The notes under the pieces: model-generated
What the model saw: only the letters and a program-made list of their open reading frames with translations
Databases searched by the model: none
What the model was told of the DNA's origin: nothing
Part shown: positions 17,370 to 32,000 of the stretch, piece after piece
Layout of the letters: the number at the start of each line of letters is the position of its first letter
Numbering within the stretch: the stretch's first letter is position 1
Translations under genes and position numbers: made by a program
Source: Deinococcus radiodurans R1 = ATCC 13939 = DSM 20539
GTDB lineage: Bacteria; Deinococcota; Deinococci; Deinococcales; Deinococcaceae
Direction: 5' to 3'
DNA length: 32,000 nt
Assembly: GCF_000008565.1 (NCBI RefSeq)
Contig: NC_000958.1
Location: 135,432 to 167,431 of the forward strand

Positions 17370-18691
17370 CAATGGTTCGTGCAGTTTTAGGCGGCTTTAA
17401 GTCCGAAATCCAGCGGACTGAACGGCGAATTCGCTCATTCTTCAAAGCGAGCCGAGAGGTCCAGATTGGATAAAATGACCTGGGCCAGCAGGGCGTTATA
17501 CGCCCTGCGTTTCATGTCTTCGAGACTGAACACCAGATCCTGCCCGCCACCTGCCGCTCGCAGGGCCTCCAGTCGGCAAAGATTCAGGGTCAGCAGCACC
17601 ACGTTCCAATGCGCCTCGATGCCCTGCTGTGACCGCAGTTGCACATCCTGGCCCCCCAGGAACTGTTTGGCATCCCGGAAGATCAGTTCGATCTCAAAGC
17701 GGCTTCGATACAGCGCCATGACCTCATGAGCCGGCATGGTCACAGCGGTGCTGAACAGCACCGCGTAGCCGGTGACCTGACCCTTTTTACCAATCTGCTG
17801 AATGACGACTGCGCGCACTTCCCGCGCCCACTGCACGCTCCAGACCACCTGCGTCCACACCCGCTCAGTCGGCCTTGCAGAGACGAGGTCGAAGCGCTGC
17901 AGGTCACTGAAGTCCACCTTACCGTCGAACTTCTTCTTTCGCCCCCGTCGTCTGGGATGCTCACCGGTGTAGAGGTCGTTGAGGTTGGCGTTGCGAGGCA
18001 ATCTGGAGATAAACGGGAGACCGTGACCCGTCACGGTCTCCACGATGGGTTCCTTCGCGTAATTCCCGTCGGCAACGACAGCAGCCAGATCAAGCTGTTG
18101 AACAGTCCGGAGATCGAGCAGCACGTCATCCAGCTGATCGGCGGCCTGTTCCAGACGAGTTGGAGCCTCAGACCCGGTCAGGGTCTGACGGACATCGACC
18201 GTCAAGGCCTGCCGGTGCTGGACATCAATGAGGGCACAACAGGATTGCTCGATTCCGCGTTCGGTCCGCGCGGCACAGCCATTCCAGAACGAGCCGAGGT
18301 GTGCGGTGTGCTGACCGGCTTTGCGGTGAAAAGAGGCGTCGATGGCCAGAACGCACAGTGGGCTGATCAGCCCACTCTCGATTGCTGTACTGACAGTCGC
18401 CTGGTGTAACGCGCCCCACGGAATGGCCCCATCGTCACTTCGGTGCAGCCAACGACGAATCGTACTCTCCGAGCAGGCTGCATACCGGGAGAGATTCAGG
18501 GCGTTCAGCCGTCCAGGAACAGCGAGAAAAACGCTGAGCAGCACGGTCAGGAAATTCCGCTGCGTCTTGCGCAGCGGGACCGCGCTGAGAACGTACTGTA
18601 GGATGGCCATCAGACCCATTGGAAGCGGTGATTTCACAGCTCCATTTTCAATGGGTCTTTCCTTTTGGGCTCAAAACTGCACGAACCATTG
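17370..18691 (-). mobile_element. IS-A (IS4/IS701-like DDE family), complete copy, 1322 bp
   Basis: 19-bp terminal inverted repeats CAATGGTTCGTGCAGTTTT (17370-17388) and AAAACTGCACGAACCATTG (18673-18691). It is inverted relative to the partial copy at 1..775. Confidence 0.9.
17435..18637 (-). CDS. DDE transposase of IS-A (400 aa)
   Basis: Candidate catalytic residues lie in VLAIDASFH, VVADGNYAKE and YRSRFEIELIFRDAK. It fills the element between the terminal repeats. Confidence 0.9.
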   Translation of the reverse strand: MKSPLPMGLMAILQYVLSAVPLRKTQRNFLTVLLSVFLAVPGRLNALNLSRYAACSESTIRRWLHRSDDGAIPWGALHQATVSTAIESGLISPLCVLAIDASFHRKAGQHTAHLGSFWNGCAARTERGIEQSCCALIDVQHRQALTVDVRQTLTGSEAPTRLEQAADQLDDVLLDLRTVQQLDLAAVVADGNYAKEPIVETVTGHGLPFISRLPRNANLNDLYTGEHPRRRGRKKKFDGKVDFSDLQRFDLVSARPTERVWTQVVWSVQWAREVRAVVIQQIGKKGQVTGYAVLFSTAVTMPAHEVMALYRSRFEIELIFRDAKQFLGGQDVQLRSQQGIEAHWNVVLLTLNLCRLEALRAAGGGQDLVFSLEDMKRRAYNALLAQVILSNLDLSARFEE

Positions 18692-20220: not shown

Positions 20221-20353
20221 CCATGGCTCTTGAGCAGAACTGCTGCCGCTCTCCGAACTCAACGGCCTGCTCCTTGCAGACGCCGTTCGACTCCAGTCGG
20301 CGCTCTCAGTAGGTGACAACTTCGGTTCGACGTTGTCCCAGACGGCAAAAACC

Positions 20354-20391
20354 AACAGTCGGCCCCATCAAGCTTGATGGGGCCGACTGTT
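20354..20391 (-). terminator. 38-bp perfect palindrome (copy 2 of the IS-B internal hairpin)
   Basis: Identical to 2023..2060 and followed on the minus strand by GGTTTTTGCC. Confidence 0.5.
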
Positions 20392-20526
20392 CGCGGTGTC
20401 CTGAGAGTGTGAAATCAACAGAGGGGAGCTGCCCAGCAGGCTACCGCACTCACCGGGCACTTCAAAACGCATGCCAGTCACCTCCGCATCGATACACTCC
20501 AGCGCCTCATTGACGTCCTCCTGGCG

Positions 20527-21510
20527 ATGATTGACGCGAGGAGCGTCAATCATCACGACCTGAGTGCCCATATGCCGGGGATGAGTACCCCGCAGGGCAA
20601 GAAGAGACGAGCAGACCGCACCTTCCGGGATGAGCAGCTGGACAGGGGCTTTTTCATCGCTCTGCTTGTCGTCCATCTTCCACCGGGGAAGGTTTTGCTA
20701 AGTCTGGACCGCACCAATTGGGAGCACGGGGAAACGCCCATCAACTTTCTGGTGCTTGGAGCCGTGGTTCACGGCTTCACCCTGCCGCTCATCTGGGTGC
20801 CTCTCGACCAGTCTGGGAACAGTCACACCTACGCTCGAATGTGGCTGGTGTTGAAGCTCCTTCGGGCCTGGCCAGCGAAACGCTGGCTGGGTCTGGTGGC
20901 CGATCGGGAGTTCATCGGCGCGGAATGGTTCCGCTTTCTTCGTCGTCAGGGCATCAAGAGGGCAATTCGTATCCGACAGACCGACATGCTAGACGACATG
21001 AATGGGAAAGAGTGGTTTGAGCATGTCCAGCACGGTCATTTTCACGAGATCGGCGAAAAGGTGTTCGTGTTCGGGGAGTTGATGCGGGTGGTCGCAACGA
21101 GGTCACCTGTGGGTGACCTCGTCATCATCGCCACAGATTTCAGTGCTCGGAAGACCTGGAGGCTCTACAAACAGCGCTGGTCGATTGAGTGCACCTTCAG
21201 CAGTTTCAAAAAGCGAGGCTTTGACTTAGAGCGAACCGGAATGACGGAAAGGAGCCGTCTACAGCGACTCTTCGGACTGGTGACATTGGCTTGGATGTTC
21301 TGTTTGCGCCTGGGGGTCTGGCTGAGCCAGACCTGGCCCATCCCTGTTCTAAAGCATGGTCGGAGAGCGGTCAGTCTGGTACGGCACGGCGCTCAGCATC
21401 TCGTGGATGCCCTACGGTGGAAACCCCAACAGTTCATGGCGATCCTGGAGGTGTTCATCCAGGCTTTTTGCCTGCCAGGAGCGGCTGAAAGTGAAGTTGT
21501 CACCTACTGA
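20527..21510 (+). CDS. IS4-family DDE transposase (327 aa from first ATG)
   Basis: Same motifs as 2196..3179. The frame is open upstream to the stop at 20410-20412. Confidence 0.9.
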   Translation: MIDARSVNHHDLSAHMPGMSTPQGKKRRADRTFRDEQLDRGFFIALLVVHLPPGKVLLSLDRTNWEHGETPINFLVLGAVVHGFTLPLIWVPLDQSGNSHTYARMWLVLKLLRAWPAKRWLGLVADREFIGAEWFRFLRRQGIKRAIRIRQTDMLDDMNGKEWFEHVQHGHFHEIGEKVFVFGELMRVVATRSPVGDLVIIATDFSARKTWRLYKQRWSIECTFSSFKKRGFDLERTGMTERSRLQRLFGLVTLAWMFCLRLGVWLSQTWPIPVLKHGRRAVSLVRHGAQHLVDALRWKPQQFMAILEVFIQAFCLPGAAESEVVTY

Positions 21511-21511
21511 G

Positions 21512-21520
21512 GAAACCGGT
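21512..21520. repeat. 9-bp direct repeat GAAACCGGT abutting the outer (right) end of IS-B copy 2; partner at 1965..1973
   Basis: See 1965..1973. Confidence 0.85.
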
Positions 21521-21741
21521 ACATTTCCACGACACGGCTTGTCAAATGGCTCACTTCGCATTTGGTCGCCGCTTCCTTCAGGGCCAACAGCGGTGCCTTC
21601 TATGACTGAAGTGTCCAATATCCGTTTTTTTCACACTACGGGGCCAAACAACGGAAGTTACAGCTTGTCATGGCTTAATGAACTTGCAATAACTAAAGCG
21701 ATGCACAGCCGACCTTCTTTCCTCTCTTCCCACCGCGCACT

Positions 21742-24700
21742 GTGAATATTTTCGAGTTCCGTCAGGAAGTCATCAACCAGTACGCCTCCTACGTCTCTTC
21801 CTTCGTTTATATCCGCGACCGGGACGTGCGCGCCTATGTGGACGCACAGATGCGGAGTGGGGTCTTCTGGCCTGATCCTCTTGCGCAACTCAACCCCAAC
21901 TTCACGCCGGGCGGCAGCGTCAGTGACCTTGTCAGTCAAGGGGTCCTGCACCCGGACTGCGCCGCGCTGTTTGCGGCTGGTGAGCCGCGCTCTCCCCTCA
22001 ACTTGCACGCCCACCAGCGCGACGCGGCTCGGCTGGCCCGTGAGGGGCGCTCGTATGTCGTGACCACCGGTACCGGTTCGGGCAAATCACTGACCTACAT
22101 CCTCCCTATCGTGGACCACGTGCTGCGCCGCGGCAGCGGCAAGGGCATCCAGGCCATCGTGGTCTACCCGATGAACGCGCTTGCCAACAGTCAGGTGGAA
22201 GAACTCAGCAAGTTCCTGGGCGACAACGGACCCGTGACTTTTCGGCGCTACACCGGCCAGGAAAAACGCGAAGAAAAAGACGCCATCATCGCCAATCCGC
22301 CGGACATCCTGCTGACCAACTACATGATGCTGGAACTGATTCTCACCCGGCAGGACGAAGCCGCGCTGGTCCGGGCTGCTGAGGGCGTGCGCTTCGTGGT
22401 TTTTGACGAGCTTCATACCTACCGTGGGCGGCAGGGGGCAGACGTAGCGCTGCTGATTCGCCGCCTGCGCGAGAGACTAAGGGCCCCCGACGCCATTTGC
22501 GTCGGTACCAGCGCCACGATGTCGTCCAGTCCGGTGTATGCCGAGCGGCAAAGGGCTGTCGCGGACGTGGCCTCGCGGCTCTTTGGGTTGGACATGACCC
22601 CCGAGCAGGTCATCGGGGAAATGTTGGAGCGCGTGACCTCAGGCGAGCCGGGCACCGCCGAGCTGAAAGCTGCCGTGGCCGCGCCAGTGCCGTCCACCTT
22701 TGAAACCTTTATTCGCGACGCCTTGGTGGTGTGGCTTGAAAACATGGTGGGCCTCCGGTGGGACGGCGAGGCGAAGCGCTATGACCGACAACCACCACAG
22801 GCCGTGGCGGGGGACGGGGGGCTGGCGGCGCAGCTCGCCCTGGAAACGGGCCTCCCCGTGATGCAGTGCCTGGAAGCCCTGCAAGGCCGCCTCCTCGCCG
22901 GCAACGCTCTGCAGCACCCGGCCACGGGGCGACCGGTGTTCGCGTTTCGGCTTCACCAGTTCATCAGCAAGGCGGCCACCGTCTACGCCCCGCTGCTGCC
23001 CTGCGCCGAGCGCCTGGAACACCTCACGTTGCGCGGACAGGTGTACGCCCCGGAGAGTGGGCGCACCCTGCGGCTTTACCCACTGGAGTTTTGCCGCAAC
23101 TGCGGGCAGGAATACTACTCAGTGCGCCGCGTCCCTGACCCTGACACGGGCCGTGAGGTGTTCGTGGCACGCGGCAATGAGGCCCGCCAAGAAAGCACGC
23201 CGGACGACGGCTATCTCTACCTCGGGGACCCCCCCTGGCCCCTGGACGAGGAGAAGCTGCTTGAGCGCCTGCCCGACAACTGGCTGGAGGAGAAGAACGG
23301 CCAACTGCGCGTGAAGTCCAGCCGCCGTGGGCAGCTCCCACGTACCGTGCGGGTGAGTGGTCTGGGTGAAGTGGGCCAAGCGGAAAGAGTCCGCGCCGCA
23401 TTCATAGAAGGCGAATTCCGCTTCTGCTTGTGCTGCGGCGTGAGTTATCTGGGCCGCACCGGCAAGCTGACCAAGCTTGCCACCCTGTCGAGCGAGGGGC
23501 GCTCCACGGCCACGACGCTGCTCAGCATGGCGGCGGTGCAGGGGCTGAGAAAGTCCGACCTGCGGGACACCGCCCGCAAGATTCTGTCGTTTACGGACAA
23601 CCGTCAAGACGCCTCTTTGCAGGCCGGGCACTTCAACGATTTCGTGTTCGTGGCCTCGCTGCGCGCCGCGTTGGCGCGGGCGCTTAAGGCAAGCCCACTC
23701 ACGCTCGAAGACGTAGCCCAGAAGGTGTTTGCAGCGTTAGAGCTGGACCTCGCTGCGTTCGCCAGCGACCCCAACGTGCGCTTCGGCGAGCGCGACCGCA
23801 CCCTCAAGACGGCCCACAACCTGATTGGCTACGCGCTCTATGCCGACCTTGCTGAAGGCCGCCGCCTGACCCTGCCCAACCTCGAAGGCGTGGACCTTGT
23901 GCGCTTCGAGTACCCCTACCTGCGAGAGGTTTGCGAAGCCCAAGACCTCTGGGAGCGGGCCCATCCGGCCCTGTCGGTGGTGCGCAGCGGCGTGGTCGAG
24001 GCGCGTGAGCGTGCCGCGCGGGCGCTGCTTGACTGGCTGCGGCAAAACCTCGCCATCAAGGCGCCTTACCTCGATCCCGACTATCTGGGCGCTGTGGTGC
24101 TGAACCTGGGCCTGATCCGCGAGGACAGCCCCCTGTCCCTACCGCCCGAAGAGGCGCAGAACCTCACCACAGCGCGGCGAGTGGTACTGGGCACGCTGCC
24201 ACGCGACGAGGGACGCTCCACCGGGCGACTCTCTTTGAGCGCCCAGGGGGCTGTTGGCCGCTACCTGACGCGCCCGGAAACGCTCGCCTGGAGCCAGGCC
24301 CTGAAGCGCGACGATGTGGACGCCATCTTGCATGACCTCTTGCTGGCCCTCTCTGAGTTCATCGAGCAGGTGGAGCCGGGCGCCTACCAACTCAAGGGAA
24401 CCAGTTTCACTTGGCACGCCGGGCCGGGCACCGAGCCGTCCGTGGACGCCTTGCGGGTGCTGCGTCCCGCGGGCAGCGAAGCGCCGCGCGTCAACTCGTT
24501 TTTCCTCTCGCTCTACCAGCAGCCCGCCGCCGAGTTTCGTGACCTTCACGGCGCCGAACACACCGCGCAGATTCGCGCTGAGGAACGCGAGAAGCGTGAA
24601 GAAGCCTTCCGCGCCGGCACCCTCCCCGCGCTGTTTTGCTCGCCCACCATGGAACTGGGCGTGGATATCAGCGACCTGAATGTGGTGCACCTGCGCAACG

Positions 24701-26862
24701 TGCCGCCCACCCCGGCCAACTACGCGCAGCGCTCCGGGCGTGCTGGGCGCAGCGGGCAGCCCGCACTGGTGATGACCTACGCCACCACCGGTAACAACCA
24801 TGACCAGTATTTCTTCCGGCGCCCGGGGCTCATGGTGGGCGGCAGCGTCTCTACCCCGCGGCTAGAACTGGGCAACGAGGCGCTGGTCAGGTCGCATGTG
24901 CACGCCATCTGGCTGGCCGAGACCGGCCAGAAGTTGCCGCCTTCGGTGGCCGAGCTGCTTGACGTGAATGGTGAAGACCCCACTCTGGCGCTGCTGCCGG
25001 ACTTCCAGCATCCGTTTCAGGATGAGGGCGTACAAAAGCGCACTCTGATTCGGGCACGGCAGCTCATCGCTGGTCTGGGCGTGGACCTCACAGGGACCGG
25101 GTGGTACAGCGAGGAATGGCTCACTTACACCGTCAAACACGCCGCCCGTGAGTTTGACCGGGCCTGCGACCGCTGGCGTGACCTTTACCGCAGCGCCCTC
25201 TCGCAGCTTCACCTCAACAACGCCGTGCTGGCCGACGCGGGCAAACGCCACCTTCAGGAACAGGCGCGCCGCCTGCACGCTGAGGCGAACACGCAGCTCA
25301 GCTTGCTGCGCAGTCCTGAAGGCGAGCTGTCGGACTTTTACACCTACCGCTACTTGGCTTCTGAGGGCTTCTTACCGGGATACAACTTCGCGCGTCTGCC
25401 CCTCTCGGCTTACATACCCGGACGGCGCGGCGCGAAGGCAGGAAGGGACAGCTACCTCTCGCGGCCCCGCTTTCTGGCGCTCTCTGAGTTCGGGCCAAAC
25501 GCCATCGTCTATCACAACGGCGCGAAGTACGAGGCCCACAAAGTCATCGTGCCGGCCCGCGGTGAAACCAGTGAACTGCCCACAGTGAGTGCCCAGCGCT
25601 GTGAGCAGTGCGGCTACCTTCACCATGGCAGCGGCGACGTTCAGGGCGATCAGGGTGCCCGCGACGTGTGCGAGAACTGTCAGGCCCAGCTCGCGCCCCC
25701 GCGCCCGGACCTCTTCCGCATGACCTCAGTGGCGACCCGCCGCCGCGAGCGCATCAGCAGTGACGAAGAAGAGCGGCGCCGGATCGGCTTTGACGTCAAG
25801 AGCGGCATGCGCTTCGCTTCGCGCGGGGGGCGGGCCGACCGCGTGCAGGCGCTGGCAGCCACCGACGCGCCGCTGCTGCGCCTGACTTACGGCGACGGCG
25901 CGACGCTCTGGCGCATCAACTATGGCTGGCGCAACCGCGAAAACAAGCAGGAACTCGGCTTTCTCTTTGACCCCGAGACCTCACAGTGGCTCAGCAAGCA
26001 GGGGCACGAACGGAAGCTCAAGGCCGCCGGAGGACGGGACGTGGCCGTGCAGCGAGTGATTCCCTATGTGGAAGACACCCGCAATGTGCTGCTGATTGAG
26101 CCGGCCCTTCCTCTGGATGCGGGCGGCATGGCTACGCTGATGAGCGCTCTCAAAAACGCTGCGCAGCTCACCTACCAGCTGGAGGACAGTGAGCTCGCGG
26201 CCGAGTTGCTGCCCGACAGCCAGGAGCCGCGCCAAATTCTGCTGTACGAAGCGTCCGAAGGCGGGGCCGGCGTACTGCAAGATTTGGTGTTCCGCTCGGG
26301 GGCGCTGGGTGAAGTGGCCGCCGCGGCGCTGGGCCTGCTGCACTTTGACCCCCTGACGGGCGAGGATCACGGGCACGCCCCCCACGCGGCGGAGCGCTGC
26401 GAAGCGGCCTGCTACGACTGTCTGATGACTTATGGCAACCAGACGTTTCATGACCTGCTTGACCGCTTCGCCGTGCGCGAACTGCTGCTGCGACTGCGTG
26501 AGGCGCGGGTCACCTTGCCCGGTGACGCAGGCGACCCTTTTGAGACCCTCTGCGCGGCGTGCGGCAGTGAACTGGAGCGCGAATGGTTGCGCTTTGTGCG
26601 GGATGAGGGCCGGCGTCTGCCGTCACACGCGCAACTGCTCGTGCCGGACCACTACGCCCGCCCGGACTTCGCGTACGCCGAGCAGGCGGCCCTGATCTTC
26701 ATCGACGGGCCCCACCACGACCAGCCTGGTCAGACAGGCCGCGACGCCCGACTGCGCGAAGAGTTGGAGTTTGCCGGGTATACCGTCGTGCCCTTTACGC
26801 ATGACCGCAGCACCTGGCCGGCGCAACTTGCCCGCTACGCATTCATTTTCGGGGAAGGATAA
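21742..26862 (+). CDS. 1706-aa DExH-box helicase fused to a DUF1998/MrfA-type Zn-binding domain and a C-terminal DUF559/Vsr-like nuclease-fold module (DrmA+DrmB-like fusion)
   Basis: GTG start. Walker A TGTGSGKS (aa 109-116), DELH (222-225), SAT (257-259). CxxC pairs at C451/C454 and C562/C564/C565. Helicase-C motif [12 protein letters not shown] (996-1005). DUF1998-type [15 protein letters not shown] (from aa 1202) with Cys clusters C1287/C1290/C1310/C1313 and [15 protein letters not shown] (1553-1560). C-terminal ~100 aa has RPDF (D1642) and IFIDGPHHD (D1655) followed by [20 protein letters not shown]. Confidence 0.85.
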
Positions 26863-26864
26863 CT

Positions 26865-29690
26865 ATGACGTTTGATATCGGTTCAATGGTGCGTGCCCGT
26901 GGGCGCGACTGGGTGGTGCTGCCTGAAAGCGGCGCGGACTTCCTGCTGCTGCGTCCCCTGGGCGGCAGCGACGCAGAAATCGCGGGCGTGTACGCCGGGG
27001 AGGGTGGGGAGGAGGTCACCTCGGCAGCGTTCGCCCCCCCGAGCCCCGCGGCCTTCGGGACCGCGAGTGGAGCGCGGCTGCTGCTGAACGCGGCCCGGCT
27101 GGCGGTGCGCAGCGGCGCTGGGCCCTTCCGGTCCCTGAGCCGCCTGGGCGTGGAGCCGCGCCCGTACCAGCTGGTGCCGCTCCTCATGGCCCTGCGCCAG
27201 AGCCCGGCCCGGCTGATGATCGCCGACGACGTGGGCATCGGGAAGACGGTGGAAGCCGCCTTAATCGCCCGCGAGCTGCTGGACCGGGGCGAGATCGACC
27301 GCCTGACGGTCCTGTGCCCACCGCACCTGGCGGGACAGTGGGTGGAGGAATTGCGGGTCAAGTTCGGCATCGACGCGGTGGCCGTGCTGCCCGGCACCGC
27401 CCGGCGCCTGGAAAAGGGCTGTAACCCTGGCCAGAGCGTCTTTGAGCGCTACAAATTCACGGTGGTCAGTCTCGACCTCGTGAAGTCGGACCGGTGGCGG
27501 CAGGACTTTCTGACCAATGCGCCCGATTTCGTCATCGTGGACGAGGCGCACGCCAGTGCTGAGGGCGAGGGCATGGGCACCAAGCGCCACCAACGCTACC
27601 GGCTGCTCGAAGACCTCGCCAGGAAGGAAGACCGGCACCTGATTCTGGTCACCGCCACGCCCCACAGCGGCAAGGAAGACGCCTTCCGCAGCCTGCTGCG
27701 GCTGCTCAATCCCGACTTCGCCAGGCTGCCACTCGACCTCAGCGGGGCGCAAAACGAGCGTGCCCGCGCGACCCTGGCCCGGCACCTCGTGCAGCGCGGG
27801 CGTAAGGACATCGCAGAGTACCTGCAGGAAGACACTCCTTTTCCAACCCGGCGCGACGCCGAGCTGCACTACGCCTTGCACCCGGACTACGCCGCCCTCT
27901 TTGACGACGTGCTGGCCTACGCCCGCGAGAGTGTCCACGTGCCCGGCGAGGCCCAGAGCCGCACCCGCATTCGCTGGTGGGCGGCGCTGGGGCTGCTGCG
28001 GGCGCTGGCGAGTAGTCCGCAGGCCGCCGCCGCCACCCTGCGCGAGCGGGCCATAGCGGCGGACGACGGAGAGACCGACGAAGCGGTGATCGACCGGCTG
28101 GGCCGCGAGCTGGTGCTTGACCCCGAAGAGGGCGAGGACAGTGCCCTGGACATGACTCCTGGGGCTCAGGTGGACGGTGAGCAGAGTGAAACCACCGGGC
28201 GGCTGCTGACGCTGGCGAGCCGGGCCGACGCCCTGGCCGGGGCCAAGGACAACAAACTGAAGCTGCTGACGGCGCAGGTGCAGGGGCTCGTCGATCAGGG
28301 ATTTGCGCCCATTGTGTTTTGCCGCTTTATTGCCACCGCAGAGGCCGTGGCCGAGCACCTCCGGGGGGCCCTGAAAGGCAGCGAAGTGCTGGCGGTCACC
28401 GGACGTCACACGCCCGACGAGCGGGTGGACCGGGTGGAAGAGCTCGCCCGCGCTGAGCGGCGGGTGCTGGTGGCGACCGACTGCCTCTCTGAGGGCATCA
28501 ACCTGCAGGCGGCTTTCAGCGCTGTGATCCACTACGACCTGCCCTGGAACCCCACCCGACTCGACCAGCGCGAAGGCCGGGTCGACCGCTACGGGCAGGC
28601 CAGCCCCGAGGTGCGGGTGCTGACCATCTACGGCGAGGACAACCGCATTGACACCCTGATTCTGGAGGTGCTGGTGCGCAAGCACCGCTTGATTCGCGCC
28701 ACGCTCGGCACCAGTGTGCCGGCGCCGGAAGAGGCCGAGAGCCTGCTCGACGTGCTGCTCAGCCGGGTGCTGAACGCGCAGGGGCGCGAAGTGATTCAGC
28801 CGCTGCTCTTTGAGGACGTGCAGGCCTTTGACCTCAAGTGGCGCGACGCCGCCGAAGGGGAAAAGAAATCGCGCAGCCGCTTTGCCCAGAACAGCATCCG
28901 CCCCGAAGAAGTGGCGAGCGAGTTGCGGGCAGTCCGTGAAGCGCTAGGGGACGCGCACGCGGCGCAAGACTTTGTGCTCGACGCTCTGAGTGGAGCCGGC
29001 GTGAGTGTTTCACCGCGTGTGGACGGCAGCTTCGAGGCCGACCCCGCGCAGGCGGACGTGAGGCCCGAGTACCGCGATTTCCTGCGTGGGGCGCGGCGTT
29101 TTCGCTTCGACGCCCAGACTGAGCGCGGCGTGACCCCGCTTGCCCGCAACCACCCCCTCGTGGAGCAGCTCGCCAGTACGGTGCTGGGGCAGGCGCTCGA
29201 CGCTCCGCTGGAGGCGGCGGCCAAACGGGTGGGCGTGATTCGCACCTCCAAGGTTGCCACGCAGACCACGCTGCTGCTGCTGCGTCACCGCTTTCACCTC
29301 ACGGGGCGCAAGGGCAACCGGACGTGGCAGACGCTGGCTGAGGAACTCGACCTGCTCGCCTACGCGGGGCGGGCACCGGCGGACGGGAAAGGCGGCTGGC
29401 TGGACGCCGAAGCCACCCGCGCCCTGCTCGCCCTGACGCCCGAAGGCAACCTCGACCCGGTGCAAAAAGAAGACCGCTTGACCCGCGTTCTGGCCGACGT
29501 TCAGGGCCTGGACGGGCCCCTGATGGCCCGCGCTCAGGAGCGCGCCGCCGCGCTGCTGGAGGCGCACGAGCGGGTGCGTGGGGCCGCGCGCGGGCAGGGC
29601 GTGACCTACAGCGTGGAACCGCCCGGCCCCCCAGACCTGCTCGGCATTTACGTCTTCCTGCCCCTGCCCAAACTTGGAGCCCTGTCTTGA
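26865..29690 (+). CDS. SNF2-family helicase (941 aa; DrmD-like)
   Basis: SD GGGGAAGGA lies 5 nt upstream of the ATG, which is 2 nt after the upstream stop. DDVGIGKT (K127), VIVDEAHAS (DEAH 226-229), [46 protein letters not shown]. Confidence 0.9.
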
Positions 29691-32000
29691 CCACCCAACT
29701 ACATCATGTCCGCCTGCACGGCCTGGGCCTGACCGACGATTTTCTGCTGCAACTTTCCGACCGCGCCCAGACGGGCAAGGTCGAGGGGGCCACTCCCGCC
29801 AGCTACGACCTGCCCCCCAAGACCAGTCTGGAAGAAGCCATTCAGGACGCCTGGGACGACGCCCGCAAAGCGTGGGCGAAATACCAGCAGCACGGCACCG
29901 ACGCCTGGGCTGGATGGGTGCGGCCTCTGCTGCGCGCGCTGGACTACAACTTCGTGGGGGGCGGCGCGGCGGGCGGCAAATACGCCGTGGGCCACCTCAC
30001 GGAAACCGGGGACGTGCCGCTGCATTTCACCCGGCAGCCGGACCTTGACCGCGTGACCGACGAAACCGGGCTGCGCGTCAGTCCGCACGGCCTGATGCAG
30101 GGCTACCTGAACGCGACGCCGGAGCATCTGTGGGGCCTCGTGACCAACGGCGAGACGCTGCGGCTGCTGCGCGACAACGCCCAGGTGACGCGCCCGGCCT
30201 ACGCCGAGTTCCAGATTGGCGAGATGCTGCGCACCGAGGACGCCCGCGCCTTCCGGGTGCTGTGGCTGCTGCTCCACCGCACCCGGCTGCGCGGCGGCAA
30301 GGTGGGGCCGCTGGAAGCCTGGAACGAGGCGAGCAAGGTGCTCGGCCAGCGCGCCAACGACACCCTGCGCGACGGGGTACAGCTCGCCATCGAGCACCTC
30401 GGGACCGGCTTTTTGCGGCACAACCCGGAGCTGCTGGAGCGCACGCGCAGCGGCGAAGTCAAGGCCGAGGACCTCTACCGCGCGGCCCTGACCACCGTGT
30501 ATCAGATGGTGTTCCTGTTCGTCACCGAGGACCGCGACCTGCTGTTTGCGCGGGATGAAGACGGCGAATACCTTCCCGACGCGCAGACCCGCGCCCGCGC
30601 CGCGCACTACCTGACCCGCGCCCTGCGGCAGAAAGCCGGCAGCGTAAACGGCAACCCGCTGCACCACGACGCTTACGTGGCCTGGGAGCGGCTGCTGGGC
30701 TACCTGCGCGGCGGCTTTGCCCCGCTGGGCCTGCCGGCGCTGGGCAGCCTGCTGTTTCAGCCGACCCTGCTCAGTGGCCTGAAACTCGGCAACGACGCTT
30801 TTTACGGCGCCGTGCGCGCCCTGAGCGAAATCAGCGTGAACGGCAGCCTGCGTCCGGTGAACTACGCGGGCCTGGACTCCGAGGAGCTGGGCAGCATCTA
30901 CGAGAGCCTGCTGGAACTGGTGCCCCGCATCGAGCCGGGGCCCCGCTTCTCGCTGACCGTGCTGCCCGGCAATGAGCGCAAAAGCACCGGCAGTTACTAC
31001 ACGCCGGGCAGCCTGATTGACCTGCTGCTGGACAGCGCCCTTGACCCGGTGATCGAAGACGCCGTACGTGACAAGCTCCCGGAAGACGCCATCGCCGCGC
31101 TTAAAGGTCTCAAGGTGATCGACCCGGCGTGCGGCTCGGGGCACTTCCTGATTGCCGCCGCCCGCCGCATTGGAGCGCGGCTGGCCGAACTGGAAGAGGA
31201 AACCAGCCTCCCCAGCCCCCGCGCCCTGCGAAAAGCCACCCGCACCGTCATCGCCCACTGCATCTACGGGGCGGACATCAACCCCATGGCGATTGAGCTG
31301 GCCAAAGTCGCCCTGTGGCTCGAAAGCCAGGACGCGGGCCGGCCCCTGGCCTTCCTCGACCACCGCCTGCGCGTGGGCAACAGCCTGCTGGGCGCCACGC
31401 CCGAGCTGATGAACGCCGAGGACGAGATTCCCGAAAAGACCGTGCGCGGCGTGACCAGCCGGGCCGTCAGGGCCCATACCCTTCACCTGCCCGACGAAGC
31501 GTTCAGCGCCATTTAAGGTGACGACAAGAAAACCGTCTCGGAGCTGAAAAAGCGCAACAAGGCCGAGCGTGAGGCCCTGATTCGCGCTGCCAAAGGCGAA
31601 CAGAGCCTGTTCGACGTGTCCGGCGACCTCGCGCCCCTCACGGCAATGGTGCGGGCGCTGGACAAAATCGAACCCGACAGCGCCGAGCACGTGCAGGCGC
31701 AGCAGAGTACCTACCACGCCATTCGCCAGAACGCCCGCTTGCAGGAGCAGCAGCGCCTGGCCGACGCCTGGTGCGCCGCCTTCGTCGCCCCCAAGACCCC
31801 CGGCCAACCCGCGCTAACCACCGCCACGCTGCACGCCCTGAAACGCACGCCGGACGCCCCCGCCCTGCAACCCGTGCGGCAACTGGTGAGCGACGTGGCC
31901 GCGCAGTACGCCTTCCTGCATCCGCACATCGAGTTTCCCGACGTGTTCGGAGACGCGCAAAAAGGTGGCTTCGACTGCGTGCTGGGCAACCCACCGTGGG
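29687..32000 (+). pseudogene. large Eco57I-type (gamma-class) N6-adenine DNA methyltransferase interrupted by an in-frame TAA at 31514-31516; 3' end outside window (DrmMI-like)
   Basis: TTG start in a TTGA overlap with the SNF2 stop. Motif I VIDPACGSGHFL (~31115-31150), [28 protein letters not shown]. After ..PDEAFSAI-TAA the same frame stays open to the window end ([19 protein letters not shown]...) and reaches motif [13 protein letters not shown] (NPPW at 31988-31999). Confidence 0.75.

What the first reader, a model, noticed from the sequence alone, without database searches (positions are those of the whole stretch)
21742..26862. Single 1706-aa polypeptide combining a split DExH helicase, zinc ribbons, DUF1998 and a C-terminal Vsr/DUF559-like nuclease fold
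Seen directly: RecA1 motifs lie at aa 109-260, but motif VI is only at aa ~996, so about 700 aa are inserted between the helicase lobes. That insert includes CxxC pairs at 451/454 and 562-565, a probable zinc ribbon. A DUF1998-type region with two 4-Cys clusters spans aa ~1200-1560. The last ~100 aa read ..[43 protein letters not shown]. This resembles the D...(E/x)xDG..H...D..R...L...G core of DUF559/Vsr-like PD-(D/E)xK modules, except that Ile occupies the position where DUF559 usually has Glu. Inference: this tail could be the nuclease effector that replaces the missing PLD (DrmC). That would make gene 1 a sensor-motor-effector fusion.
Basis: partly seen in the sequence, partly recalled or inferred. 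Interest (0 to 1): 0.75.

Follow-up and report, generated by a model that had tools for sequence, protein, structure and literature searches.

The report
ARMADA type I helicase-nuclease, already described
The giant gene is DR_B0135 of the Deinococcus radiodurans megaplasmid, a helicase fused to a Vsr-like nuclease that a 2025 preprint already lists as an ARMADA type I anti-phage gene; in this strain the partner methylase gene is broken.

Summary
Window 21742-26862 (+) is one intact 1706-aa ORF with a YprA/MrfA-type DExH helicase, invariant zinc-binding cysteine clusters, a DUF1998/MZB domain and a C-terminal Vsr/DUF559-like PD-(D/E)xK domain. The proposed catalytic residues D1642 and D1655, plus H1659 and D1668, are conserved in 109-117 of 118 homologues.

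It is not new. The protein is 100% identical to AAF12564.1 (DR_B0135, D. radiodurans R1 megaplasmid MP1). Bell et al. 2025 (PMC12458937, Table S1) list that accession as an "ARMADA Type I helicase". They also describe the BrxA-like, zinc beta-barrel and MarR-like inserts and the C-terminal "predicted active" Vsr nuclease.

The locus fits ARMADA type I: YprA-like helicase, then an SNF2 helicase (26865-29690), then a PglX-like N6-adenine methyltransferase (from 29687). It fails the defining tests for DISARM and Druantia.

What I add: in R1 the methyltransferase is a pseudogene. It has a GAA>TAA nonsense codon at 31514-31516 and an ISDra3 insertion just beyond the window. An ISDra1 copy ends 230 bp upstream of the helicase. 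The system is therefore probably disabled here.

Nuclease activity has not been tested in any ARMADA system.

The parts
21742..26862 (+). armC-type gene (DR_B0135): 1706-aa YprA-family DExH helicase fused to a Vsr-like nuclease, intact ORF
   Evidence: ORF found. It is 100% identical to P0001 = AAF12564.1 / Q9RZJ2_DEIRA. That accession is listed as an ARMADA Type I helicase in Bell et al. Table S1.
21997..22617 (+). RecA1 lobe (aa ~86-292): motif I GTGSGKS 109-116, DELH 222-225, SAT 257-259
   Evidence: Pfam DEAD 91-262, E=1.6e-28. Motifs are 97-100% conserved in 118 homologues.
22639..22917 (+). Helical insert after RecA1 (aa ~300-392), the position of the BrxA-like domain described for ARMADA helicases
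   Evidence: AF2 secondary structure and the description in Bell et al.. No domain-level fold search was done here.
22981..23487 (+). Beta-rich zinc-binding module inserted in RecA2 (aa ~414-582) with invariant C451, C454, C562, C565
   Evidence: The four Cys are 118/118 conserved. The AF2 model is mostly beta strands here. Bell et al. describe a beta-barrel ZBM at this position.
23494..23601 (+). RecA2 segment between inserts (aa ~585-620) with invariant motif-IV-like K[11 protein letters not shown]
   Evidence: Conservation and the helix-strand pattern in the AF2 model.
23602..24537 (+). Second large insert in RecA2 (aa ~621-932), helical with a three-stranded wing. This is the position of the MarR-like domain of ARMADA helicases.
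   Evidence: AF2 secondary structure and Bell et al.. The assignment is inferred, not tested by fold search.
24538..24876 (+). C-terminal part of RecA2 (aa ~933-1045) with motif V (966-976) and motif VI (993-1004)
   Evidence: Pfam Helicase_C 936-1005, matching model positions 41-110 only. Motifs are invariant.
24877..25341 (+). Long helical region (aa ~1046-1200), the position of the HTH plus coiled-coil finger of ARMADA helicases
   Evidence: AF2 shows long helices 1143-1190. Described by Bell et al..
25342..26139 (+). OB/connector region (aa ~1201-1466) with an inserted 4-Cys zinc module C1287, C1290, C1310, C1313
   Evidence: The four Cys are 118/118 conserved. NCBIfam gives a weak YgiT zinc-finger match at 1271-1291. 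One ZBM insert in this region is the type I pattern.
26140..26466 (+). DUF1998 / MZB domain (aa 1467-1575) with invariant C1553, C1557, C1560 and H1570
   Evidence: Pfam MZB E=5.7e-9. Conservation.
26530..26859 (+). Vsr/DUF559-like PD-(D/E)xK nuclease domain (aa ~1597-1706): E1612, D1642, F1653, D1655, H1659, D1668
   Evidence: Pfam DUF559 E=7e-4 on this sequence. 40/42 homologous tails hit DUF559 and 15/42 hit MTES_1575. A PDB profile search hits Vsr, 3hrl and 3r3p. AF2 pLDDT is 87.5. Foldseek top hit is 3r3p_B.
26865..29690 (+). armA-type gene (DR_B0136): 941-aa SNF2/RapA/BrxHII-like helicase. It starts 2 nt after the armC stop codon.
   Evidence: Pfam SNF2-rel_dom plus Helicase_C. PADLOC DpdE 769 bits and DrmD 265 bits. 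NCBIfam DrmD 312 bits, below its 610 cut-off.
29687..32000 (+). armB-type PglX/YeeA-like N6-adenine methyltransferase, a pseudogene that runs off the window. It overlaps the armA stop by 4 nt, and the NPPW motif lies at ~31988-31999.
   Evidence: PADLOC DrmMI 220 bits. Pfam N6_Mtase and MmeI_Mtase. tblastn with the intact 1336-aa D. wulumuqiensis enzyme gives 72% identity over aa 4-1142, then aa 1169-1329 beyond an ISDra3 copy.
31514..31516 (+). In-frame TAA nonsense codon inside armB. The reading frame continues unchanged after it. The aligned residue is Glu in D. radiophilus and D. wulumuqiensis.
   Evidence: The codon is identical in the independent assembly NZ_CP038993.1, where the gene is annotated as two CDS.
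20305..21511 (+). ISDra1 (IS4 family) copy with terminal inverted repeats. Its right end lies 230 bp upstream of the armC start.
   Evidence: Inverted repeats 20305-20351 and 21465-21511. Pfam DDE_Tnp_1. Annotated as ISDra1.

Best explanation
The gene is DR_B0135 of the Deinococcus radiodurans R1 megaplasmid MP1. It is the YprA-family helicase-nuclease (ArmC type) of an ARMADA type I defence operon: armC-like helicase, then an SNF2 helicase, then a PglX-like N6-adenine methyltransferase.

Shown here:
- The identity of the gene.
- The domain order: RecA1, inserted helical and zinc modules, RecA2, a helical finger, OB/connector with a zinc module, DUF1998/MZB, then a Vsr-like domain.
- Conservation of the helicase motifs and the Vsr-type catalytic residues.
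- The conserved three-gene neighbourhood.

Inferred mechanism, by analogy with MrfA, DrmAB and DruE:
- The helicase loads on single-stranded or forked ends of invading DNA and translocates using ATP.
- The zinc and OB modules hold the DNA.
- The tethered Vsr-type domain nicks or cuts the DNA being tracked. It thereby does the job that the separate PLD protein DrmC is thought to do in DISARM.
- The SNF2 helicase and the methyltransferase supply self/non-self marking and are needed for defence, as in ARMADA type II.

In strain R1 specifically, the methyltransferase carries a nonsense codon and an IS insertion, and an IS sits just upstream of the operon. The system is therefore most likely a recently disabled relic whose two helicase genes are still intact.
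For: Identity:
- The window is 100% identical to MP1 records.
- The ORF equals AAF12564.1, which Bell et al. Table S1 lists as an ARMADA Type I helicase, DR_B0135.

Family:
- Pfam finds DEAD, Helicase_C and MZB.
- MrfA is the top PDB fold hit for aa 1-1200, whose model has pLDDT 88.6.
- PADLOC gives DruE 296 bits against DrmA 69 bits.

Operon:
- SNF2 and PglX-like methyltransferase genes are adjacent, with a 2-nt gap and a 4-nt overlap.
- The same trio occurs in six other loci from Deinococcus and from metagenomes.

Nuclease:
- DUF559 and MTES_1575 hits.
- Vsr, 3hrl and 3r3p hits by sequence profile and by fold.
- In the HMM alignment D1642 aligns with the Asp of Vsr's RPDF motif. D1668 aligns with the Asp of Vsr's ERD motif. 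From my own knowledge of Vsr numbering, these are D51 and D97.
- Conservation is 109-117 of 118.
- Bell et al. reach the same 'predicted active Vsr' call.

Disabled state:
- TAA at 31514-31516 where relatives have Glu.
- ISDra3 splits the 3' part of the gene.
- Relatives carry intact 1300-1336-aa enzymes.
- ArmB deletion and its NPPW mutant abolish ARMADA II defence.
- SMRT sequencing of R1 found no 6mA motif (PMC6712171).
Against: - No nuclease activity or nuclease-dead phenotype has been reported for any ARMADA helicase.
- Only type II has been tested experimentally, not type I.
- This sequence alone scores 19.9 bits on DUF559, below the 20.6 gathering score. The Foldseek E-value for the tail is only 0.023.
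- In the closest studied relative, DruE, one group found the C-terminal PLD nuclease domains dispensable and saw no nuclease activity.
- Nine of 118 homologues, all in the Deinococcus clade, have lost H1659 and in some cases D1642, D1655 or D1668 while keeping the helicase motifs. The nuclease is therefore not indispensable everywhere.
- The two helicase ORFs are fully intact despite the dead methyltransferase. That is also compatible with retained function.
- DR_B0136 transcripts are detected in R1.
Confidence: 0.8

Rival explanations
1. The C-terminal Vsr-like domain is not the effector. It is a structural, DNA-binding or partner-docking module, and defence works through helicase-driven displacement or unwinding or through another nuclease.
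For: - Druantia I/II helicases carry inactivated Vsr domains.
- The DruE PLD domains were dispensable for defence and no nuclease activity was seen in one study.
- DrmC is dispensable against some phages.
- 9/118 homologues have degenerate Vsr motifs with intact helicase motifs.
- The DUF559 Glu is replaced by Phe/Tyr across the whole family.
Against: - D1642, D1655, H1659 and D1668 are kept in 92-99% of homologues across phyla. That is unexpected for a purely structural module.
- Phe at the 'Glu' position is what active Vsr itself has.
- Another group reports helicase-coupled nuclease activity for DruE.
Confidence: 0.2
2. The locus is a class 1 DISARM system in which DrmA and DrmB have fused and the Vsr tail replaces a lost DrmC.
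For: - The neighbours resemble DrmD and DrmMI (PADLOC 265 and 220 bits; NCBIfam DrmD 312 bits).
- No PLD gene is present in the operon.
Against: - The helicase matches DruE models at 296 bits against 69 bits for DrmA.
- NCBIfam DrmA scores 12.8 bits against a cut-off of 950, and DrmD 312 against 610.
- The published phylogeny puts this protein in the ARMADA clade next to Druantia, not in DISARM.
- The gene order differs from DISARM.
Confidence: 0.04
3. DR_B0135 is a housekeeping DNA-repair helicase-nuclease of the MrfA/YprA type that contributes to Deinococcus radiation resistance, not a defence gene.
For: - MrfA is the best structural match.
- The host is D. radiodurans.
- The helicase and SNF2 ORFs are intact although the methyltransferase is dead.
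- DR_B0136 is transcribed and stress-responsive.
Against: - The gene is plasmid-borne and flanked by IS elements.
- Across phyla it is always linked to an SNF2 helicase and a PglX-like methyltransferase.
- It often sits next to McrBC, toxin-antitoxin or pAgo genes.
- It lies in the 'defence' branch of the YprA tree.
- The literature search found no paper linking DR_B0135 to repair.
Confidence: 0.05

Closest known systems
ARMADA type I (Bell et al. 2025, bioRxiv, PMC12458937), helicase component (ArmC type)
   Same: - The same protein: DR_B0135 / AAF12564.1 is in the paper's Table S1.
- The same gene order: YprA-like, then BrxHII-like SNF2, then PglX-like methyltransferase.
- The same domain plan, including one zinc module in the OB region and a single terminal Vsr domain.
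   Different: Nothing in the helicase itself differs. In this strain the methyltransferase partner is a pseudogene (nonsense codon plus ISDra3), and an ISDra1 copy lies just upstream.
ARMADA type II of E. coli (ArmABCD; Bell et al. 2025; mBio 2026, PMC13463889)
   Same: - A YprA-like helicase with a Vsr nuclease, an SNF2 helicase and a PglX-like methyltransferase.
- It is experimentally anti-phage, direct and non-abortive, and all genes are required.
   Different: - Type II has a strict order ArmA-ArmB-ArmC-ArmD.
- It has an extra GajB-like UvrD helicase with a RelE domain.
- ArmC there often carries extra inactive EEP and Vsr domains.
- None of these features is present here.
DruE of Druantia type III
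   Same: - It gives the best PADLOC match (296 bits).
- It shares the YprA core with inserted winged-helix and zinc modules, the OB-zinc module, MZB and a C-terminal nuclease-type domain.
- DruE is a 3'-to-5' ssDNA-dependent DNA helicase.
   Different: - DruE ends in two PLD domains, not a Vsr domain.
- It partners with DruH, not with an SNF2 helicase and a methyltransferase.
- Its MZB site has four Cys, whereas here there are three Cys plus His.
DISARM class 1 (DrmD, DrmMI, DrmA, DrmB, DrmC)
   Same: - An SNF2 helicase and a large N6-adenine methyltransferase partner a DUF1998-type helicase.
- A nuclease module is associated with the system.
   Different: - The helicase and the DUF1998 part are one polypeptide here.
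- There is no PLD protein.
- The helicase is much closer to DruE than to DrmA.
- The curated DISARM models fall below their cut-offs.
Vsr endonuclease / DUF559 / I-Bth0305I (Vsr-like branch of PD-(D/E)xK)
   Same: - The fold matches.
- The motifs are the same: RPDF, then hydrophobic-(F/Y)-x-D-G, then H, then R-D and G-(Y/W)-x-V.
- Phe/Tyr occupies the Vsr Phe62 position.
   Different: - It is fused to the end of a 1600-aa helicase rather than free-standing.
- It has Asp where E. coli Vsr has His64.
- It lacks the Glu of the DUF559 ExDG motif.
- Its activity and substrate are unknown.

Membership tests
ARMADA type I | YprA-family SF2 helicase with a DUF1998/MZB domain in one polypeptide | tested here: met
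   Pfam DEAD, Helicase_C and MZB. Foldseek top hits are MrfA 6znp/6znq.
ARMADA type I | The helicase is closest to Druantia DruE rather than to DISARM DrmA | tested here: met
   PADLOC gives DruE 296 bits against DrmA 69 bits.
ARMADA type I | Adjacent BrxHII/RapA-like SNF2 helicase gene | tested here: met
   The gene at 26865-29690 has SNF2-rel_dom plus Helicase_C. It matches PADLOC BrxHI/BrxHII-named models (209 and 187 bits), DrmD and DpdE and NCBIfam RapA.
ARMADA type I | Adjacent PglX/YeeA-like N6-adenine methyltransferase gene | tested here: met
   Homology is clear. The gene is nonetheless inactivated by TAA at 31514-31516 and by ISDra3.
ARMADA type I | Gene order helicase, SNF2, methyltransferase, with no GajB-like UvrD-RelE gene (which would indicate type II) | tested here: met
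   The ORF map and the annotation of the MP1 region show no UvrD-type gene in the operon.
ARMADA type I | A single C-terminal Vsr-type nuclease domain with catalytic residues kept | tested here: met
   The protein ends right after the domain.
ARMADA type I | BrxA-like, zinc beta-barrel and MarR-like modules inserted after RecA1 and within RecA2 | tested here: inconclusive
   The zinc module is supported by invariant C451/454/562/565 and a beta-rich model. The BrxA-like and MarR-like assignments rest on position and secondary structure only, because no domain-level fold search was possible.
ARMADA type I | Placement in the ARMADA type I clade of the YprA phylogeny | tested here: met
   AAF12564.1 / DR_B0135 is listed as an ARMADA Type I helicase in Table S1 of PMC12458937. 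The accession is tied to the window ORF by exact sequence.
ARMADA type I | Anti-phage activity | not testable with these tools
   Only type II has been tested experimentally.
DISARM class 1 | DrmA helicase and DrmB (DUF1998) encoded as separate genes | tested here: not met
   A single ORF carries both parts.
DISARM class 1 | DrmC PLD nuclease gene | tested here: not met
   No PLD hit was found in the six ORFs scanned. No PLD-type product appears in the annotation of the MP1 region.
DISARM class 1 | Curated DrmA and DrmD equivalog models passed | tested here: not met
   NCBIfam DrmA scores 12.8 bits against a cut-off of 950, and DrmD 312 bits against 610.
Druantia (types I-III) | A DruE-type helicase together with DruH, DruABCD or DruMFG partners | tested here: not met
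   The helicase matches DruE models only in part (two stretches). The operon partners are an SNF2 helicase and a methyltransferase, not Dru proteins.
Vsr / DUF559 branch of PD-(D/E)xK nucleases | Vsr-like alpha/beta fold | tested here: met
Vsr / DUF559 branch of PD-(D/E)xK nucleases | Pfam DUF559 gathering score | tested here: inconclusive
   This sequence scores 19.9 bits against a cut-off of 20.6. Of 42 homologous tails, 40 match at E<0.01, best 7e-9.
Vsr / DUF559 branch of PD-(D/E)xK nucleases | Catalytic Asp of the PD motif and the downstream acidic and His residues | tested here: met
   D1642 is kept in 117/118, D1655 in 114/118, H1659 in 109/118 and D1668 in 115/118.
Vsr / DUF559 branch of PD-(D/E)xK nucleases | Glu of the DUF559 ExDG motif | tested here: not met
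   The position holds F1653 (Tyr in 90 and Phe in 28 of 118), as in Vsr proper.
Vsr / DUF559 branch of PD-(D/E)xK nucleases | Metal-dependent endonuclease activity | not testable with these tools
   No biochemical data exist for this domain in any ARMADA helicase.

The most novel reading that the evidence does not exclude
In D. radiodurans R1 the intact helicase-nuclease (DR_B0135) and SNF2 helicase (DR_B0136) still work without their methyltransferase. They would form a methylation-independent DNA-end-processing or plasmid-restricting pair, possibly driven from the ISDra1 outward-facing promoter-like site. That would mean an ARMADA system can be stripped to a two-helicase nuclease module and be retained, or even co-opted for genome maintenance.
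Probability: 0.07. Interest if true: 0.55.

Novelty: already known. Interest (0 to 1): 0.18.

Why it matters
The architecture, the Vsr assignment and this very gene were published in 2025, so nothing new is claimed for the family. Two things remain useful:

- The nuclease role of the ARMADA Vsr domain is still untested. The analogous question for DruE is currently disputed. The residues listed here (D1642, D1655, H1659, D1668, and K115 as the helicase control) are therefore a ready mutagenesis set.
- R1 offers a natural 'methyltransferase-dead, helicases-intact' ARMADA locus. Anyone using R1 as a model, or annotating its defence systems and methylome, should know this.

Tried and rejected
- The Foldseek search with the whole 1200-aa model only recovered the helicase core: MrfA, Lhr, HamB and Ski2-like proteins. 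It could not test the BrxA-like and MarR-like assignments.
- The BRD125 plasmid assembly is broken into many short CDS across all three genes, most likely because of assembly errors. I did not use it as evidence about gene integrity.
- The literature search for DR_B0135 found no functional study. Only DR_B0136 appears, in expression lists.
- I could not verify that the REBASE name ORF14075P in PMC6712171 refers to this methyltransferase, so that link is left open.
- I considered and rejected DISARM and Druantia membership, and Dpd despite the strong PADLOC DpdE hit of the SNF2 gene. No 7-deazaguanine genes appear among the ORFs scanned or in the MP1 annotation.
- I did not use the large representative-protein search, because the family size and spread were already clear and from the published census.

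Full report
**1. What is there**

Window 21742-26862 (+) is a single uninterrupted 1706-codon ORF with a GTG start. Its first residues match the consensus N-terminus of 63 homologues, so the start is credible.

Pfam finds DEAD (aa 91-262, E=1.6e-28), Helicase_C (936-1005, E=6.6e-14, matching only model positions 41-110) and MZB/DUF1998 (1467-1561, E=5.7e-9).

- GTGSGKS at 109-116
- DELH at 222-225
- SAT at 257-259
- motif V at 966-976
- QRSGRAGR at 996-1003

The CxxC pairs at 451/454 and 562/565 are invariant (118/118), as is a second 4-Cys set at 1287/1290/1310/1313.

The DUF1998/MZB site has only three invariant cysteines (1553, 1557, 1560) plus an invariant H1570. The position of the first Cys of the DruE MZB motif is a conserved Glu here. 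'Two 4-Cys clusters' is therefore only half right.

**2. The 'split helicase'**

An AlphaFold2 model of aa 1-1200, built on a 64-sequence alignment, is confident (mean pLDDT 88.6, pTM 0.83). Its best PDB matches are the DUF1998 helicase MrfA (6znp, 6znq, 6zns) and then Lhr.

The secondary-structure map and the conservation pattern show that the ~700 aa between motif III and motif V are not one insert. RecA2 elements are interleaved:
- a strand at 402-409 (FAFRLHQF)
- a helix-strand unit at ~587-617 carrying the invariant [10 protein letters not shown]

Three modules are inserted around these:
- a helical one at ~300-392
- a beta-rich zinc module at ~414-582
- a long helical/winged one at ~621-932

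This is the arrangement Bell et al. describe for ARMADA, BRIGADE, TALON and Druantia helicases: a BrxA-like domain, a beta-barrel zinc-binding module and a MarR-like domain. The cryo-EM work on DruE calls the equivalent parts WH, dZBD, DBD and DD. I could not run domain-level fold searches, so the BrxA-like and MarR-like labels are taken from the literature, not tested here.

**3. The C-terminal tail**

- The last 139 aa alone hit Pfam DUF559 at E=7e-4 and 19.9 bits, against a gathering score of 20.6.
- Of 42 homologous tails, 40 hit DUF559 (best E 7e-9) and 15 hit the restriction-endonuclease-like family MTES_1575.
- A profile of the tails finds Vsr (1cw0, 1vsr, 1odg), the DUF559 structure 3hrl and I-Bth0305I (3r3p) as the top PDB sequences, interleaved with weak, presumably spurious cullin-4B chains. 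E-values are weak, 0.2-0.6.
- The AF2 model of aa 1568-1706 is good (pLDDT 87.5). Its best PDB fold match is 3r3p_B, the Vsr-like homing endonuclease catalytic domain (probability 1.00, TM 0.69 on the target, 97 columns, E=0.023). Other PD-(D/E)xK nucleases appear lower in the list: arenavirus cap-snatching endonucleases, FAN1 and PspGI.
- In the HMM alignments D1642 pairs with the Asp of Vsr's RPDF motif. F1653-I1654-D1655-G1656 pairs with Vsr F-T-H-G. R1667-D1668 pairs with Vsr R-D. From my own knowledge of E. coli Vsr numbering, these are D51, F62-G65 and D97.
- Conservation among 118 homologues: E1612 115, D1642 117, D1655 114, H1659 109, D1668 115.
This is the Vsr-type state.

Neither is met, so the fold and active-site prediction stands.

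**4. Context**

The next gene (26865-29690) starts 2 nt after the stop codon. It is an SNF2/RapA-like helicase:
- Pfam SNF2-rel_dom plus Helicase_C
- PADLOC DpdE 769 bits, DrmD 265 bits and BrxHI/BrxHII-named models at 209 and 187 bits
- NCBIfam DrmD 312 bits, below its cut-off of 610

The third gene (from 29687, overlapping by 4 nt) is a PglX/YeeA/DrmMI-like N6-adenine methyltransferase.

The same trio, in the same order, flanks homologues in:
- D. wulumuqiensis
- D. radiophilus
- Deinococcus sp. RL
- three other contigs: two JGI metagenome contigs and one NCBI assembly (GCA_053500175.1)

One contig has an extra UvrD gene.

**5. Identity and prior knowledge**

The window is identical to D. 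radiodurans R1 megaplasmid MP1, with 0 mismatches over 26,259 bp against NZ_CP038993.1. The protein is 100% identical to the cluster representative carrying accession AAF12564.1 / Q9RZJ2_DEIRA.

The finding is therefore a correct rediscovery of a published architecture in a listed member.

**6. Membership tests**

ARMADA type I features were met here, with two reservations noted at the end of the list:
- a YprA/MZB helicase
- a helicase closer to DruE than to DrmA (296 vs 69 bits)
- SNF2 and PglX-like neighbours
- type I gene order
- no UvrD-RelE gene
- one zinc module in the OB region
- a single terminal Vsr domain

The BrxA-like and MarR-like assignments were only partly testable. Clade placement was taken from the paper's table rather than a rebuilt tree.

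DISARM fails. The DrmA and DrmB parts are fused, there is no PLD gene, and NCBIfam DrmA scores 12.8 bits against a cut-off of 950. Druantia fails because none of its partner genes is present.

**7. What is particular to this genome**

The methyltransferase is a pseudogene.
- At 31514-31516 an in-frame TAA interrupts the reading frame, which continues unchanged to the NPPW motif at the window end.
- The aligned residue is Glu in the D. radiophilus and D. wulumuqiensis enzymes (…ALEGDDKK…). A single GAA>TAA change explains it.
- Just beyond the window an ISDra3 (IS630-family) copy separates the part matching aa 4-1142 of the intact 1336-aa D. wulumuqiensis enzyme from the part matching aa 1169-1329. 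The latter is annotated as a 161-aa hypothetical protein.
- The closest relatives (helicases 79-86% identical) have intact 1300-1309-aa enzymes, so the damage is recent and lineage-specific.
- An ISDra1 copy (20305-21511, terminal inverted repeats) ends 230 bp upstream of the helicase start. A weak promoter-like site spans its end.

In ARMADA type II, deleting the methyltransferase or mutating its NPPW motif abolishes defence. By analogy, the R1 locus is therefore probably non-functional as a defence system. This is consistent with SMRT sequencing that found no 6mA motif in R1 (PMC6712171). I could not confirm which REBASE ORF name in that paper corresponds to this gene.

The helicase-nuclease and SNF2 ORFs are nevertheless fully intact with all catalytic residues. 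DR_B0136 transcripts are detected in published expression studies.

**8. Mechanism**

Shown: domain composition, conserved catalytic residues of the helicase and the Vsr-like domain, and a conserved operon.

Inferred by analogy:
- MrfA and DruE are ssDNA-dependent helicases. DruE unwinds 3'-to-5', and from my own knowledge MrfA has the same polarity. Their OB/MZB 'canopy' closes over the tracking strand.
- DrmAB senses ssDNA overhangs.
- The most likely model is that ArmC loads on ssDNA-containing ends or forks of invading DNA and translocates. Its tethered Vsr-type domain would nick or cut the DNA. The SNF2 helicase and methyltransferase would provide self-marking and an essential, still undefined contribution to defence.

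The weakest step is the effector role of the nuclease.
- No ARMADA nuclease mutant is reported.
- For DruE, two 2026 preprints disagree on whether the C-terminal nuclease matters.
- Nine of 118 homologues, all in the Deinococcus clade, have lost H1659. Several have also lost D1642, D1655 or D1668. All nine keep the helicase motifs.

**9. Verdict**

- Novelty: already known.
- Residual value: a clean mutagenesis target list for an open question, and the note that the R1 copy has a dead methyltransferase.

Noticed in passing
window 31514-31516; L001 27463-28975 (outside the window): The ARMADA methyltransferase gene of R1 is broken twice. It has a GAA>TAA nonsense codon and an ISDra3 insertion, and the 161-aa 'hypothetical protein' after the IS is the displaced C-terminus of the enzyme.
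   Followed up: yes
window 20305-21511 and 21497-21525: An ISDra1 copy with 47-nt imperfect terminal inverted repeats ends 230 bp before the helicase start. A sigma-70-like site (TTGTCA, 17 nt, TACATT) spans the IS end and could be an outward hybrid promoter.
   Followed up: partly
window 20354-20391: A perfect 19+19-nt palindrome (AACAGTCGGCCCCATCAAG / CTTGATGGGGCCGACTGTT) with no spacer lies just inside the left end of ISDra1. Its function is unknown.
   Followed up: no
homologues P0009, P0012-P0017, P0020, P0027 (Deinococcus clade): Nine of 118 homologous helicases have a degenerate Vsr motif: H1659 is lost, and D1642, D1655 or D1668 are lost in some. Their helicase motifs are intact. D. 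wulumuqiensis (P0013) combines such a tail with an intact methyltransferase, the reverse of R1.
   Followed up: partly
homologues of ~1830-1855 aa, e.g. P0029, P0035, P0037, P0040, P0056: A subset of type I-like helicases carries an extra ~110-aa domain after the Vsr domain. It was not characterised.
   Followed up: no
L002 15499-17559: In one metagenomic locus a 686-aa UvrD-type helicase gene sits between the YprA-like helicase and the SNF2 gene. This arrangement matches neither the published type I order nor the type II order.
   Followed up: no
L001 30690-34627; L004 23517-25100; L007 23652-25109; L008 23422-25115: The Deinococcus ARMADA loci sit in defence islands. McrB/McrC-type genes follow in three of them, a Piwi-domain gene follows in one, and HicA or PIN toxin genes are nearby.
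   Followed up: no
L006 16921-21356 (D. radiophilus pRadio2): The D. radiophilus methyltransferase is only 1204 aa and is followed directly by an IS982 transposase. This may be a second, independent IS truncation of the same gene's 3' end.
   Followed up: partly
window 17435-18637 (-): A second IS4-family element (ISDra7) lies next to the sodium:alanine symporter gene, so the region upstream of the operon is IS-rich.
   Followed up: no
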